Shown here: one piece after another, positions 6,315 through 10,056 of the stretch
Layout of the letters: every line of letters starts with the position of its first letter
Position numbering within the stretch: the stretch's first letter is position 1
Source: a virus
Length of the DNA: 64,000 nt
Virus record (IMG/VR): IMGVR_UViG_3300036892_000014
Location: 19,882-83,881 of that record
Direction: 5' to 3' (one strand)
Program-made: the position numbers and the translations under genes
Notes under the pieces: generated by a model
Database searches by the model: none
What the model was told of the DNA's origin: nothing
The model's input: only the letters and a program-made list of their open reading frames with translations

Positions 6315-7531
6315 GTGATCTAGCACCTACGCCACAAAGCATTGATATGGCCATGATCCGCGGATGGGACGCGGCGACCATGAAGAGATATATGGCTGGC
6401 CCGTTACGTGCTACCATATTTGAAGTGATCTCGAACGCTGAGACTGCTAGGCAGGAACAAGCGGCTGCTGCACAGACGGAACTGGCGCAAGCCCCTCCTG
6501 TTGTCGGTGAGCCCGCAACTACGGATGTTGCCGAAGTAGAGCGTGTTCGCGCACAGCGTGTTGCCGAAGAAGCGCAGCGCGTTGAAGCACAGCGTCTCGA
6601 AGCAGAAGCTGTCGCTGCGCAAGTACCAAAAAAGATCGTTCTTGAATATCAAGTGACAGATGAGAGCGGGAACGCCATCGGGCGTCCGACTCATCTTGAA
6701 GCCACCAGCCATGAAGAAATGGTTGCGAAGGTTAAGGAAGCGCACATACAAGCAACGCGTGCGTTTAATCGCTTGAAGAGTCAGAAAGTACAATCCCTGA
6801 AAGAGGCAACCGCGTCAGGACAGATCGTGACGCCTCCCCAGGCTGCTCCGAGCATGTCCGATGAGGAAATGATCGCAGCCATTAAGGCACTAAAGTCAGA
6901 CGACCCGAAGGTCGCCTTGGAAGCTCACAGAAAGTTGCAAGCGGATGAACTAGCCAAGCAGAAGGCTGTATCCGATGCGGAACTCGCTAGAGTAAATGAA
7001 GATCGTCGCCAAGAAAAAGTCAGCCATGGTTTCTTGAACGATCACAAACACGATTTTAATCCGTGCGAAGCGAACATTAATCTGATTCGTGATTACTTCC
7101 AAGAAAATCAATTACCTTGGACACGCGATAATCTAGAAGTAGCTTTGCTCGCTAAGTCATCAGAGTTGGCTGGAGTTGTACAGCCAACAGCGCCTGTCGC
7201 CCCTAATCCGGTTCCGACAGCAACGCTACCCGCAGCAGCGGTAACAACTACAGTAGCGGTCCCGCCAGTGCAGGCGGCTCCGACTGCGACGGTCGCAGCA
7301 ATTCCTCCGGCAAATCCGGCAGTGATTGTTCCGAGACCGGGCGTTAACGCAGGAGTAGTTCCCGGTGAGACCTCAGGGTCGCGCCCGACAGGAACGACTT
7401 CGAGCGGCATAACGGTAGCAGAGATTACTTCATGGGATGCTAAGACGATGCGTGAGAAGATGCGTAATCCGCAGCTTCGAGCCCAAATACAGGCAGTCAT
7501 CGCAGCCAACCCCACGAATAAGTTTCGCTAA
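6311..7531 (+). CDS. Capsid scaffolding protein
   Basis: Ala/Glu/Gln-rich coiled coil, Pro/Ala/Thr linker and short C-terminal helical motif; immediately upstream of the capsid gene. Confidence 0.7.
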   Translation: MSDLAPTPQSIDMAMIRGWDAATMKRYMAGPLRATIFEVISNAETARQEQAAAAQTELAQAPPVVGEPATTDVAEVERVRAQRVAEEAQRVEAQRLEAEAVAAQVPKKIVLEYQVTDESGNAIGRPTHLEATSHEEMVAKVKEAHIQATRAFNRLKSQKVQSLKEATASGQIVTPPQAAPSMSDEEMIAAIKALKSDDPKVALEAHRKLQADELAKQKAVSDAELARVNEDRRQEKVSHGFLNDHKHDFNPCEANINLIRDYFQENQLPWTRDNLEVALLAKSSELAGVVQPTAPVAPNPVPTATLPAAAVTTTVAVPPVQAAPTATVAAIPPANPAVIVPRPGVNAGVVPGETSGSRPTGTTSSGITVAEITSWDAKTMREKMRNPQLRAQIQAVIAANPTNKFR

Positions 7532-7578
7532 AGAGTCCCAGCGAAGTCTGAAGACTAAGGGGCACACGGAGGCTTGCT

Positions 7579-8820
7579 ATGGCAGGCTCACCGAATCCGT
7601 CAGCAGCAAATGTAGGAAATATACTGACGGCGCAAAGCATTATGTTTGATAAGGAACTCATCCCGAACTTGAAGGGAGAAACGGATGCGTTCATCGTAGC
7701 AGCAGAAAAGCGTGTACAGCCGAACGGCGTTGGTATCAACCGCCAGTTCTTCCAGTACAACACTTTGACTGGTGATACGACACAGGTAGGAGACGGAGTT
7801 GTTGGCTCACCGGAATTCGTCGGTCAGATCAGCGCCCCGGCTCAGTTGGGCGAATGGAACAACTACACGAACTTCAGTTCGTTCGTAATTGCTTCAGCGC
7901 TTGACGACCTAGTGGGTAATTCCGCAGTCGAACTAGCCTACCAGGCTGGTCAGAGCATTTCCGAGTTGTACAGCGCCGTAGCAGACAGTGCTGGTCTAGC
8001 CTCAGTGGACACACAGGTTAACCAGAGCGCTTTGCTAGCATCGCCTTACACATTGGACTTGGCAACTGTACGTGAATTGAAGCAGCAGCTTGTTTCAAAG
8101 AACGTACTGCCGAACCGCAATGGTAAGTTCGCAGGCGTTGTATCTTCTAACGTGTTGGGCGACATCTTCAACGCAACGACAGTGAACAACTCAATCGTTG
8201 ACTTGTGGAAGTACGCAAACATCGAGAAGTTCGACAAGATCGCTGGTGCAGACCAGAAGATGGACATCGAACTCCCGGGAACGAACATCGTGCTTCGTCA
8301 GACGCCGTTCGTAACCACGACCGCTAACTACGCTGGCTCAGGTAAGATTTCTTACCGTACCTACGTAATGGGACAGTATGCCTTGATCGGCATCTGGCAG
8401 CAAGTTGGTGGAGACACCGACTTGGGTGACGGAGACTGGCGCACAATCGACTGCAAGGTCGTAGAGAGCGCACCGGCATCAGCATTTGATCCGACGGGAA
8501 CAATCGGTGGATAAAGAGTACTGTCCACTTTAAATTTTCTCTGATTGACTTGAACGCTGAAAAGCCAACAAGGGGCAAGCCGAAAGGCAGCCTGAACGAC
8601 TAAGTGAGAAAACACCCTCTGACAAAAGGGTGATGCGATAGTCTGACCATACGGGAATCAAAACCGTATGAACCGAACAGAAATGATTCGGTACACTCTG
8701 GTGAGTGTTAACAAGAGCGGGTGCTCATATAAATTTCACCAAACAGTTTCATTGCCGCCAGCACGTGGGGCTAACACCCAGCGTATGCGCTACATTGACT
8801 CTGTCCCAGCAATTCAGTAA
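7579..8820 (+). CDS. Major capsid protein, spliced: join(7579..8512,8720..8820), 344 aa
   Basis: HK97-fold-like capsid sequence after scaffold. The unspliced ORF ends abruptly at FDPTGTIGG. Removing 8513-8719 restores T|GG (Trp) and adds WCSYKFHQTVSLPPARGANTQRMRYIDSVPAIQ*, giving a DP.G..GW motif typical of capsid C-termini. Confidence 0.85.
8513..8719 (+). ncRNA. Group I self-splicing intron (207 nt, no internal ORF) in the major capsid gene
   Basis: P1 GGTGGAT(8506-12)/GTCCACT(8523-29) with U.G at the splice site; P10 GAGTACT(8516-22)/GGTGCTC(8720-26); P3 TTTTCTC(8535-41)/GAGAAAA(8606-12); P7 GACTA(8598-8602)/TAGTC(8639-43); P8 CACCCT/AGGGTG; three P9-region hairpins; terminal G8719. Confidence 0.92.
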
Positions 8821-8863
8821 TAAACCTCTTCCCACGGGCTTATAATCCGTGGTATACTAATCA

Positions 8864-8904
8864 GGGGCATGCCAGAAACATGCCCCAGATTCTCTTTTCT
8901 GGAG
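8864..8904 (+). promoter_or_regulatory. SD-sequestering hairpin/pseudoknot upstream of the endonuclease
   Basis: Stem GGGGCATG(8864-71)/CATGCCCC(8879-86); loop CCAGAAA is complementary to TTTCTGG(8896-8902), overlapping GGAG. A TGGTATACT extended -10-like box lies just upstream. Confidence 0.55.
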
Positions 8905-8911
8905 AGTACAC

Positions 8912-9403
8912 ATGTTCTATGGATTTAAGTCAAGAAGTGCTAGACAAAAGTATTATAAGAAGTGGAATAAAAGAAACAAACATCGCACTAAGAAATATGC
9001 CAAGAAGTGGTATTTAAACAATCGGGATAGGATTCTCAAGAGAGAAAAATCAAGGAAAGTCCGAACCCGAAAGTACAAGACTCGAAGACTGTGGAGAAGC
9101 CGTAATCGACTTCGAGAACTATCATATGGTTTGAAAGCCAAGTACGACATGAGTCTTTCTGGGTATAGAAAGATGTTCAAACATCAGAAAGGAAGATGTG
9201 CGATTTGCGGGAAGAAAGAGTCTATGCGGGATTCAAACACCGGAAAGATTCGTCTTCTCTGTGTAGACCACAATCATAAAACTAAAAAGATTCGTAAACT
9301 CCTATGTTGGCACTGTAACCTTGGCATAGGTATTTTCAAGGACGACTGGAGGCTATTGCAAATAGCATCTAGATATTTGAAAACGAATAAAGGAACTCGG
9401 TAA
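8912..9403 (+). CDS. Free-standing endonuclease VII-family (His-Me) homing endonuclease
   Basis: KY..S..Y..M..QKGRCAICG...LCVDHNH....IRKLLC..CN.GIG.FKDD...L..A..YL; very basic N-terminus; AT-richer than flanks. Confidence 0.9.
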   Translation: MFYGFKSRSARQKYYKKWNKRNKHRTKKYAKKWYLNNRDRILKREKSRKVRTRKYKTRRLWRSRNRLRELSYGLKAKYDMSLSGYRKMFKHQKGRCAICGKKESMRDSNTGKIRLLCVDHNHKTKKIRKLLCWHCNLGIGIFKDDWRLLQIASRYLKTNKGTR

Positions 9404-10056
9404 TGGCACAATCTCAAACGCCGCCGCTTCAGACGCTGACGAATCCCTGGGAAGGACGCAGTGACCTGAAAACCACAAGAGCCACAATAAAACAACTCTT
9501 AGCTGGTGGGACACCCTCGTGGGTCCGTTGGCCGAAGGACTATCGTAGCTTCGCCCAGGAATCGATTCTCGCCGACAAAGAAGTTAGTGATCGGATGACG
9601 TTGCGTTACAAAATGGAAGACCAGGAACTGCTTCTAAATGAAGAGGCACGGAAGGTTAATCCATGGCGTACTCGGAACTTCGTAGAGAAGATGAGGAACT
9701 CGGGCATCAGATGCTATACGATCTTCAATGGATTCCCTCCATCGACGGTCGCACTTTGGGCCTTCAGACCGGGAACAGACCATGTCGTACCCGTGTGTTA
9801 TTTGCAGACCCCGGCGATGTACGAATGGAGCGTGTTAAGGCTCGATAAACGTGGTCTACCAGCGGGAGAATCCTTTCGCGGATGGCGAACCGTTGTCGGG
9901 CAATTGATTGAGAAAGGGATTATTTCAGAGGCGCGAGCCAATGAAATTTTCGGACGACCGTGCGATGGCCCCGTTAGTCGCAGGTACAGAAGAAATATGT
10001 ACTGGCTCCGCAATCGGCGTGAACTAGTGGCAACTCCCGAAGAGATAGAACTGTAA
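9403..10056 (+). CDS. Hypothetical protein
   Basis: 217-aa ORF coupled to upstream stop; RGWRTV motif. Confidence 0.75.
   Translation: MAQSQTPPLQTLTNPWEGRSDLKTTRATIKQLLAGGTPSWVRWPKDYRSFAQESILADKEVSDRMTLRYKMEDQELLLNEEARKVNPWRTRNFVEKMRNSGIRCYTIFNGFPPSTVALWAFRPGTDHVVPVCYLQTPAMYEWSVLRLDKRGLPAGESFRGWRTVVGQLIEKGIISEARANEIFGRPCDGPVSRRYRRNMYWLRNRRELVATPEEIEL

What the first reader, a model, noticed from the sequence alone, without database searches (positions are those of the whole stretch)
8506..8820. Hidden minimal group I intron splits the major capsid gene
Seen: the capsid ORF stops at 8514, but 8513-8719 folds as a complete group I core: P1 with U.G, a 7-bp P10 with the 3' exon, P3, P7, P8, P9 hairpins and a terminal G. 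Excision recreates a Trp codon and adds 33 aa. At 207 nt it has no ORF and no obvious P2, close to the size of the compact Azoarcus intron. Inference: the most abundant virion protein depends on self-splicing, and gene callers will truncate it. Capsid-gene introns are less common than introns in DNA-metabolism genes.
Basis: partly seen in the sequence, partly recalled or inferred. Interest (0 to 1): 0.85.

Follow-up and report, generated by a model that had tools for sequence, protein, structure and literature searches.

The report
Spliced group I intron in capsid gene
A 207-base self-splicing-type (group I) intron really does interrupt the only major capsid gene of this 84-kb peat/permafrost soil phage, and environmental RNA shows it removed exactly where predicted; the kind of element is known, but this intron family escapes the standard database model and has colonised many sites of the same capsid gene in related phages.

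Summary

- **Gene structure:** the ORF 7579-8514 stops at a UAA made of exon base T8512 plus intron bases AA. Removing 8513-8719 recreates a Trp codon and adds 33 residues, giving 344 aa.
- **Homologues:** intron-less relatives (up to 97% identical, mostly 341-345 aa) read straight through the predicted junction, ...TIGG-W-CSYKF...
- **RNA:** contigs from three peat/permafrost metatranscriptomes join 8512 to 8720, skipping exactly 207 bases. One of them has no mismatch over 507 bases.
- **Intron structure:** 44 related introns give strong covariation for P3-P9.1, including the P3/P7 pseudoknot and a G-binding-site-like P7. 96.7% of cells are paired, against 35-40% in slid controls.
- **Rfam:** RF00028 misses the window copy. 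Relatives reach only 22-28 bits, against a cut-off of 50.
- **Protein:** it is an HK97-fold major capsid protein. The intron sits inside a predicted beta-strand.

Capsid-gene group I introns are already known (Tuc2009, LittleE). An ORF-less intron beside a free-standing EndoVII-type nuclease is known from S-PM2 psbA/F-CphI. This is therefore a new member of a known kind.

One extra result: the same ORF-less family sits at 12 or more sites of this capsid gene in related phages. This scan has noted the family before on other DNA. Autocatalysis and the mode of mobility remain inferred.

The parts
7579..8512 (+). Capsid exon 1 (codons 1-311 plus the first base of Trp312)
   Evidence: ORF. tblastn of intron-less P0001 covers residues 1-311 at 97%. 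RNA contigs end this block at 8512.
8513..8719 (+). ORF-less group I intron, 207 nt (P1 3' strand/IGS, P3-P9.2, terminal G8719; no P2)
   Evidence: Skipped exactly in RNA contigs of runs X1, X3 and X4. Absent from intron-less homologues. Family covariation. nhmmer E = 2e-44.
8506..8529 (+). P1 hairpin: 5' exon GGUGGAU paired with internal guide GUCCACU, with the U8512.G8523 wobble. The loop holds the P10 guide GAGUACU (8516-8522).
   Evidence: Sequence. P1 length 7 and P10 length 7 found by script. The same guide occurs in the sister intron L041.
8596..8644 (+). P7 (A8596, bulged C8597, G8598-A8602 with U8639-U8644), enclosing P3' (8606-8612), P8 (8613-8632) and J8/7 AUGCGA. Candidate guanosine-binding site at G8598-C8643.
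   Evidence: the G-C, A-U and C-G pairs are invariant or nearly so, and the outer pair switches A-U to G-C (27 against 17) across the bulge.
8720..8820 (+). Capsid exon 2 (last two bases of Trp312, 32 codons, stop 8818-8820)
   Evidence: tblastn residues 313-344 at 97%. 16 invariant residues in this tail among 32 full-length homologues. RNA contigs resume at 8720.
8864..8904 (+). Two-hairpin leader in front of the nuclease gene. The second hairpin covers the GGAGAG ribosome-binding site.
   Evidence: z = -3.1. Also described in earlier scan note e1-6065682.
8912..9403 (+). Free-standing EndoVII-type (HNH-like) nuclease gene, 163 aa; candidate homing endonuclease
   Evidence: Pfam PF02945 at 6e-17. 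PHROG endonuclease VII families down to 6e-25. CxxC...DHNH...R...CxxCN motif in the C-terminal half, read.

Best explanation
Window 8513-8719 is a genuine, compact, ORF-less group I intron inside codon 312 of the phage's single HK97-fold major capsid gene.

The unspliced message ends at a UAA formed by U8512 plus A8513 and A8514. It would give a 311-aa protein lacking part of one beta-strand and all of another.

Proposed reaction:
1. The intron folds into P1 (U8512.G8523) and a P3-P9.2 core with the P3/P7 pseudoknot.
2. A guanosine bound at the G8598-C8643 pair of P7 attacks after U8512.
3. P10 (8516-8522 with 8720-8726) aligns exon 2.
4. Terminal G8719 replaces the cofactor and the exons are ligated to ...GGUGGAU|GGUGCUC...
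5. The ligated mRNA encodes the full 344-aa capsid protein.

Shown: the exact ligated junction in environmental RNA, the full-length protein in intron-less relatives, and the conserved, covarying secondary structure.

Inferred: autocatalysis, GTP dependence, and how the intron spreads.
For: - **Junction in RNA:** contigs of three metatranscriptome runs skip exactly 8513-8719. X1 has 0 mismatches over 437+70 nt, and no RNA contig covers 8572-8705. The closest known intron-less relative is only 89% identical in DNA over these exons, so the X1 contig comes from this phage population.
- **Homology:** P0001 and 86 other clusters are full length and read through the junction. The isolated Tunturiibacter phage Tunturi_3 has one uninterrupted 343-aa major head CDS aligned to residue 343.
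- **Structure:** on 44 family members, 96.7% of cells are paired against 35-40% for slid controls. 40 of 45 pairs show compensatory changes, 0 of 500 shuffles reach this, and every helix including P3 and P7 is supported.
- **Rfam:** RF00028 aligns its full model to a family member at 23 bits (L052), and to two other capsid-gene introns at 22-28 bits.
- **Protein:** AlphaFold pLDDT 86.7. Foldseek finds phage GP4, Pan3 and N4 capsids at E = 1e-13 and TM about 0.7. Residues 309-322 form one strand that spans the splice site.
Against: - Rfam gives no group I hit on the window even at E <= 10. Relatives stay under the 50-bit gathering score.
- All RNA evidence is assembled contigs from environmental libraries. 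These cannot give a spliced-to-unspliced ratio.
- An intron-less strain identical over 507 nt cannot be strictly excluded. The tool did not report whether the joined form exists in DNA runs (table 5b).
- Self-splicing has not been tested.
Confidence: 0.94

Rival explanations
1. Mobility reading A (an addition to the main explanation, not a replacement): the intron and the downstream EndoVII-type nuclease (8912-9403) form a collaborative-homing pair. The nuclease would cut intron-less capsid alleles near codon 312. The intron would protect its own genome and be copied in during repair.
For: - The arrangement is that of S-PM2 psbA with F-CphI, an EndoVII-motif nuclease (PMC6083498; review PMC3984707).
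- The nuclease has the C-terminal CxxC/DHxH/R/CxxCN motif.
- All 25 related loci with a C-terminal intron have an insert of more than 300 nt between the capsid gene and the next gene, against 25 of 36 loci without one (Fisher p = 0.0017, not corrected for shared ancestry).
- Introns at codons 312 and 315 go with an EndoVII-type gene in 6 of 6 classifiable loci. Introns at codon 319 go with a GIY-YIG gene in 11 of 12.
Against: - EndoVII-type genes occur equally often beside capsid genes without a C-terminal intron (8/25 against 11/36, p = 1).
- L001 (no intron) and L041 (same intron as the window) carry nearly the same nuclease subtype.
- No clear nucleotide signature separates the groups around the insertion site.
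- Free-standing nucleases usually target their own empty insertion site.
- Cleavage specificity is untested.
Confidence: 0.35
2. Mobility reading B: the intron family moves between sites through RNA, by reverse splicing guided by a few bases of P1 pairing, followed by reverse transcription and recombination.
For: - One ORF-less family occupies 12 or more sites of the same gene.
- Clades mix sites that share the bases before the splice site: codons 290 and 319 (...CCAT|/...TCAT|, support 99/98), codons 31 and 315 (...CCT|, 92/90), and codons 277, 317 and 330 (...GTT|, 92/92).
- Core distance correlates with 5'-exon similarity (Spearman -0.23, permutation p = 0.009).
- The pathway has been proposed but lacks direct evidence (PMC3984707, PMC1299323).
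Against: - The correlation is weak.
- Many closest pairs are simply neighbouring sites (309, 312, 317, 319), which DNA-level events could also explain.
- Guides could have adapted after insertion.
- No reverse transcriptase was looked for.
- Boundaries of some relatives were inferred under the assumption of U before and G at the end.
Confidence: 0.3
3. The joined RNA contigs come from an intron-less sister strain (or its DNA). The window's own copy is an unspliced, disabling insertion.
For: - Intron-less alleles of this gene exist in nature.
- Contigs X3 and X4 differ from the window at 5 and 8 positions.
- Whether the joined form exists in DNA runs was not reported.
Against: - The X1 contig is identical to the window over 507 nt, whereas the nearest intron-less relative differs at 57 of 516 positions.
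- This is the phage's only copy of this capsid gene. A tblastn of the intron-less protein found only a weak 27% partial match elsewhere in the window; the 19.9 kb of the genome outside the window were not searched with the protein.
- The core is conserved under strong structural selection.
Confidence: 0.03
4. The capsid protein really ends at TIGG, and 8720-8820 is unrelated or reached by another recoding route (frameshift, bypass, protein splicing).
For: Some database proteins end at TIGG (P0058, P0080, P0084).
Against: - P0058 is exon 1 of L041, an intron-bearing gene. P0080 and P0084 were not traced to their own loci.
- The 33-residue tail has 16 invariant positions and forms two strands of the HK97 fold.
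- The RNA lacks the 207 nt.
Confidence: 0.01

Closest known systems
psbA group I intron of cyanophage S-PM2 with the adjacent free-standing nuclease F-CphI ('collaborative homing'; PMC6083498, PMC3984707)
   Same: - A small ORF-less group I intron in a highly expressed phage gene.
- A free-standing nuclease gene with the EndoVII catalytic motif in its C-terminal half lies immediately downstream.
   Different: - The host gene is the major capsid gene of a soil phage.
- blastn finds no sequence similarity to any cyanophage record.
- Whether the nuclease targets the intron insertion site is untested, and the comparative evidence is mixed.
Group I introns in phage capsid genes: mycobacteriophage LittleE (Cluster J) and lactococcal phage Tuc2009 (PMC3706429)
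   Same: - A group I-type intron (U before, G at the end) splits a major capsid gene and is removed from late mRNA.
- The genomes are rich in free-standing HNH nucleases.
   Different: - The LittleE intron is about 820 bp and carries a LAGLIDADG-like ORF. This one is 207 nt and ORF-less.
- Here a single family occupies 12 or more sites of one capsid gene family, with up to three core copies per capsid gene by the profile scan.
Compact bacterial group I introns such as the Azoarcus pre-tRNA-Ile intron (subgroup IC3). The comparison is recalled from the literature; the structure papers are cited in PMC3984707.
   Same: - Size about 200 nt.
- Minimal P4-P6 without P5abc.
- No P7.1/P7.2 (P3' abuts P8 directly).
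- GNRA-type loops on P6 and, in many members, on P8.
   Different: - This copy has no P2.
- It has three 3' hairpins (P9, P9.1 with a conserved CAGAAAUGA loop, P9.2).
- It sits in a protein-coding gene.
- Subgroup membership was not established here.
Phage IA2 introns (T4 td/nrdB/nrdD, Twort orf142). The comparison is from general knowledge.
   Same: - Phage mRNA introns.
- Several introns can cluster in one gene (Twort orf142).
   Different: - IA2 introns have P7.1/P7.2 between P3' and P8. Here there is no room for them (8612/8613 are adjacent).
- Rfam RF00028 does not reach threshold.

Membership tests
Group I intron | 5' splice site after a U that forms a U.G wobble at the end of P1 with an internal guide sequence | tested here: met
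   U8512.G8523 closes a 7-bp P1. The RNA joint lies exactly after 8512.
Group I intron | Intron ends in G (omega G), and P10 pairs the guide with the 3' exon | tested here: met
   G8719. 7-bp P10, 8516-8522 with 8720-8726. The RNA resumes at 8720.
Group I intron | Conserved core in the order P3-P4-P5-P6-P7-P3'-P8-P7', with the P3/P7 pseudoknot | tested here: met
   all eight helices are supported. 40 of 45 pairs have compensatory change, and 96.7% of cells are paired against 35-40% in slid controls.
Group I intron | Guanosine-binding site: a conserved G-C pair in P7 next to a bulged nucleotide | tested here: met
   G-C invariant in 44 of 44. The adjacent bulge is C or A. The outer pair covaries A-U to G-C. 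Guanosine binding itself was not tested.
Group I intron | Match to the curated model Rfam RF00028 at its gathering score | tested here: not met
   No hit on the window at gathering or at E <= 10. One family member (L052) reaches 23.2 bits and two other capsid-gene introns 22-28 bits, against a cut-off of 50. This reflects the model's reach rather than a missing defining structural feature.
Group I intron | Precise excision and exon ligation at RNA level | tested here: met
   Contigs of three metatranscriptome runs skip exactly 207 nt.
Group I intron | Autocatalytic, guanosine-dependent splicing in vitro | not testable with these tools
   Needs in vitro transcription and a splicing assay.
Collaborative homing pair (S-PM2 psbA intron / F-CphI type) | ORF-less intron with an adjacent free-standing nuclease of the EndoVII-motif (DHHRN) family | tested here: met
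   No intron ORF. PF02945 at 6e-17, with the motif in the C-terminal half.
Collaborative homing pair (S-PM2 psbA intron / F-CphI type) | The nuclease cleaves the intron-less allele at the intron insertion site, and the intron blocks cleavage | not testable with these tools
   Needs a cleavage assay on joined-exon and intron-containing targets.
Collaborative homing pair (S-PM2 psbA intron / F-CphI type) | Intron and nuclease co-occur across relatives | tested here: inconclusive
   Sites 312 and 315 go with EndoVII in 6 of 6 loci, and site 319 with GIY-YIG in 11 of 12. However, EndoVII presence is unrelated to intron presence overall (p = 1), and L001 has the nuclease without the intron.
HK97-fold major capsid protein | HK97 fold, and similarity to annotated or solved major capsid proteins | tested here: met
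   AlphaFold pLDDT 86.7. Foldseek finds GP4, Pan3 and N4 capsids at E = 1e-13, TM 0.6-0.7. PHROG 1357 at 1e-6. Tunturi_3 major head protein at 34.5% identity, E = 3e-43.

The most novel reading that the evidence does not exclude
The window's intron is one copy of a single ORF-less ribozyme lineage that has repeatedly retargeted itself within one essential gene. It occupies 12 or more sites of this capsid gene family and also a P22-type coat gene. New sites would be chosen by the few bases that pair with its guide (a reverse-splicing-like route). Copies would be kept in place by site-specific partnerships with different free-standing nucleases downstream of the gene: EndoVII type for codons 312 and 315, GIY-YIG type for codon 319. 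If so, this family would be an unusually rich natural data set for RNA-guided group I intron transposition, a pathway for which reviews say direct evidence is lacking.
Probability: 0.3. Interest if true: 0.75.

Novelty: new member of a known kind. Interest (0 to 1): 0.5.

Why it matters
- **Annotation.** Without recognising the intron, the phage's only major capsid gene is called 33 residues short. 33 of the 120 closest database clusters are truncated in the same general way, and the 50%-identity protein library holds many exon-sized fragments. The standard Rfam model does not flag the intron.
- **Biology.** Production of the most abundant virion protein depends on an RNA splicing step, and peat and permafrost RNA shows that step happening in nature.
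- **Intron mobility.** The wider family offers material to test how ORF-less group I introns move and persist. It has many sites in one gene, guides matched to each site, and two kinds of neighbouring nuclease.

Tried and rejected
The contigs behind the truncated proteins were reached through the search for related loci instead.
- **Rfam** at gathering and at E <= 10 on the window gave no group I hit, only chance matches to rliE and HOTTIP_3.
- **blastn against phage records** found only one relative of the intron, MW202674.1.
- **First AlphaFold job**, on 32 close homologues, failed with pLDDT 32. It was redone with a diverse 65-sequence alignment.
- **Profile search of PDB sequences** gave only kinesin noise.
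- **Automatic P1 search** in relatives sometimes latched onto the conserved J3/4-P4 GACUUG instead of the true guide. Its summary statistic (mean 5.1 against 3.6 bp) is only a rough indication.
- **L040 boundary.** The splice-boundary script assumes U before and G at the end. Its solution for L040 (152 nt) was wrong; the core starts earlier.
- **Nuclease against intron, simple test.** 'EndoVII gene present against C-terminal intron present' showed no association (p = 1).
- **Codons 303-324 across nuclease and intron classes** showed no clear resistance signature.
- **Depth of the nuclease gene in RNA contigs** is not interpreted, because contigs cannot rank expression.
- **Subgroup** (IA, IB, IC...) could not be assigned with the tools at hand.

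Full report
**1. What is in the sequence**

The ORF 7579..8514 encodes 311 aa ending ...DPTGTIGG. It stops at TAA 8512-8514. A second frame, open from inside the gap to 8820, reads ...GCSYKFHQTVSLPPARGANTQRMRYIDSVPAIQ. Joining T8512 to G8720 makes TGG (Trp) and a 344-aa product.

Between the two coding blocks lie 207 nt. I read the helices directly. P1 is GGUGGAU with GUCCACU, with U8512.G8523 at the splice site. P10 is GAGUACU with GGUGCUC, 7 bp. The core then runs P3, J3/4, P4, P5, P6, P7, P3', P8, J8/7, P7', P9, P9.1 and P9.2, followed by the tail UAACAAGAGCG that ends in G8719.

P1 is joined to P3 by UUAAA, so there is no P2. P3' abuts P8, so there is no P7.1/P7.2. The stretch folds far better than shuffles (z = -4.4, 0 of 200).

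**2. Homology test**

A search with exon 1 found 309 relatives. Most of the best 120 are 341-345 aa long, with 344 and 341 the commonest. P0001 (97% identical, 344 aa) reads ...TIGGWCSYKFHQTVTLPPARGANTQRMRYIDSVPAIQ, which is exactly the predicted junction and tail.

In 32 full-length homologues the tail holds 16 invariant residues. Even at 20-30% identity the motif DPxGxIG...SYxF...P...RxR..D persists. The nearest cultured relative, Tunturiibacter phage Tunturi_3 (Arctic tundra soil podovirus, PMC11924767), has one uninterrupted 343-aa 'major head protein' CDS aligned through residue 343.

The database proteins that do stop at TIGG are artefacts of the same intron. P0058 is 100% identical to exon 1 of locus L041, which carries a sister intron at the same site. 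Of the 120 best clusters, 33 are cut short, most at positions that coincide with intron sites.

**3. RNA evidence**

Twelve runs recorded as RNA and one guessed to be RNA hold part of the stretch; most are peat or permafrost metatranscriptomes. Contigs from the four best runs were laid on 7500-9500.

Three runs (X1, X3, X4), each listed under its own study code, contain a contig that joins 8512 to 8720. The skipped stretch is exactly 207 nt, with ends AA..CG. The X1 contig matches the window without a single difference over 437+70 nt. X3 and X4 differ at 5 and 8 positions, so they are close strains. No RNA contig covers the intron interior.

The nearest intron-less relative I could find (L001) differs at 57 of 516 positions over the same exons. 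The X1 contig therefore derives from this phage population.

There are caveats. These are assembled contigs from environmental libraries. They give no spliced-to-unspliced ratio. The tool did not report whether the joined form occurs in DNA runs.

**4. Is it a group I intron?**

A scan of viral contigs gave 79 loci with related capsid genes. Laying the intron-less protein on them showed insertions at many places. All short insertions (about 170-250 nt) align as one family with a strongly conserved core.

On 44 cores (alignment A1) I counted the structure I had derived from the window copy, with P7 written as a pseudoknot:
- 96.7% of cells pair, against 35-40% when partners are slid by 1-3 columns.
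- 40 of 45 pairs show changes on both sides.
- None of 500 shuffles reaches the observed values.
- Every helix, including P3 and P7, is supported.

In P7 the G-C pair is invariant. It sits next to a bulged C or A, and the pair beyond the bulge switches A-U to G-C. This is the architecture of the group I guanosine-binding site; I identify it from general knowledge of the family.

Rfam's RF00028 gives nothing on the window even at E <= 10. It does align its whole model to a family member (L052, 23.2 bits) and to two other capsid introns (27.7 and 22.4 bits), all below the 50-bit cut-off.

So every structural hallmark I could test is met, and the curated model's threshold is not. I read that as a limit of the model. 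I could not assign a subgroup. Absence of P7.1/P7.2 argues against IA1/IA2, and absence of P5abc against IC1/IC2 (criteria from general knowledge).

**5. The host gene**

A first AlphaFold run on close homologues failed. A diverse 65-sequence alignment, built from a full HMMER scan, gave pLDDT 86.7 and pTM 0.81.

Foldseek finds the capsids of Ralstonia phage GP4, cyanopodophage Pan3 and coliphage N4 at E about 1e-13 and TM 0.6-0.7. PHROG 1357 'major head protein' also matches.

The model places one long strand at 309-322 and another at 334-339. The intron therefore lies inside a strand, and a 311-aa product would lack both.

The profile of the intron core finds only this one copy in the 83,881-bp genome.

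**6. How it probably works, and how it got there**

The splicing pathway is given under Best explanation. The ligated product is shown; the chemistry is inferred.

For mobility there are two leads, neither proven.

(a) **Collaborative homing.** Ninety bases after exon 2 lies a 163-aa gene of the EndoVII family (PF02945, 6e-17). It has CxxC, DHNH, R and CxxCN in its C-terminal half. That is the arrangement of F-CphI beside the ORF-less psbA intron of S-PM2 (PMC6083498).

Evidence from relatives that fits this lead:
- The gap between the capsid gene and the next gene is a landing pad for free-standing nucleases, either EndoVII type or GIY-YIG/NUMOD3 type.
- Every one of 25 loci with a C-terminal intron has such an insert, against 25 of 36 without (p = 0.0017, uncorrected for ancestry).
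- Introns at codons 312 and 315 go with the EndoVII type (6 of 6), and introns at codon 319 with GIY-YIG (11 of 12).

Evidence against it:
- EndoVII genes are as common beside intron-less genes (p = 1).
- L001 (no intron) and L041 (same intron) carry almost the same nuclease.
- I saw no resistance signature in the exon DNA.

(b) **Reverse-splicing-like retargeting.** A tree of cores puts the window with L041 (support 100/98). It contains clades that mix sites sharing the bases before the splice site. Core distance correlates weakly with 5'-exon similarity (Spearman -0.23, p = 0.009). Many of the closest pairs are simply neighbouring sites, so this is suggestive only.

**7. Comparison with what is known, and novelty**

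Group I introns in phage capsid genes are published. The LittleE intron was spliced as shown by RT-PCR, and Tuc2009 is cited for the same (PMC3706429). ORF-less introns partnered with free-standing nucleases are published too (PMC6083498, PMC3984707).

The window's element is therefore a new member of a known kind.

What is less ordinary is the family. It is invisible to Rfam at threshold. It occupies 12 or more sites of one capsid gene, with up to three core copies per capsid gene by the profile scan, sometimes two within the last 35 codons. It is also present in an unrelated P22-type coat gene.

Earlier notes of this scan describe the same family on other DNA and the same stretch read as a candidate collaborative-homing pair. 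I tested those readings here rather than relying on them.

**8. Verdict**

- Observation: confirmed.
- Interpretation: supported.
- Confidence that this is a group I intron removed precisely from capsid mRNA: 0.94.
- Interest: 0.5. This is solid and useful for annotation and for studying intron mobility, but it is not a new kind of element.

Noticed in passing
L001-L079 (capsid genes of related viral contigs): The same capsid gene carries insertions at about 16 positions: near codons 22, 30, 31, 90-96, 120, 206, 274, 277, 290, 309, 312, 315, 317, 319, 322 and 330. ORF-less members of one intron family sit at 12 or more of them. Some genes hold three core copies by the profile scan (e.g. L050, L052, L054, L070, L072).
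   Followed up: partly
L070 3675-4102; L035 3990-4459; L008 3910-4344; L020 2839-3295; L025 2234-2681; L048 3878-4350; L061 3859-4664: Two or three intron cores lie within, or just after, the last 35 codons of the capsid gene, separated by very short exons. Exact boundaries of the second copies were not worked out. Earlier scan notes describe core-less mini-introns next to full introns in such genes; I saw none in this window.
   Followed up: no
L080 (MW202674.1) about 2495-2711: A member of the same intron family (73% identical over the core) splits a 'P22 coat protein' gene of an unrelated 36.6-kb podovirus into two annotated CDS, with a spurious 'hypothetical protein' CDS called inside the intron.
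   Followed up: partly
Gap between the capsid gene and the next gene in L005, L007, L012, L014, L017, L028, L060 and others: Free-standing GIY-YIG/NUMOD3 nuclease genes occupy the position where the window has its EndoVII-type gene. The nuclease type tracks the intron site: EndoVII with codons 312 and 315, GIY-YIG with codon 319.
   Followed up: partly
L060 2159-2914; L065 2066-2992: Long insertions near codon 94 of the capsid gene carry LAGLIDADG-type ORFs. Other long insertions carry ORFs without a Pfam match, some with CxC-rich N-termini.
   Followed up: partly
L043 3093-3261 (169 nt); L054 1605-1781 (177 nt): Family members that lack the P9.1/P9.2 hairpins are only 169-177 nt long. If active, they would be very small for group I introns.
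   Followed up: no
window 8864-8904: Two hairpins precede the nuclease gene. The loop of the first (CCAGAAA) is complementary to part of the second (UUUCUGG), and the second covers the GGAGAG ribosome-binding site. This is a possible translational control of the nuclease, already flagged by another note of this scan.
   Followed up: partly
Protein library hits P0122-P0270: Many 50%-identity representatives of this capsid family are fragments bounded at residues 22/23, 31/32, 94/95, 119/120, 206, 290 and 318. These are exons called as separate genes.
   Followed up: no
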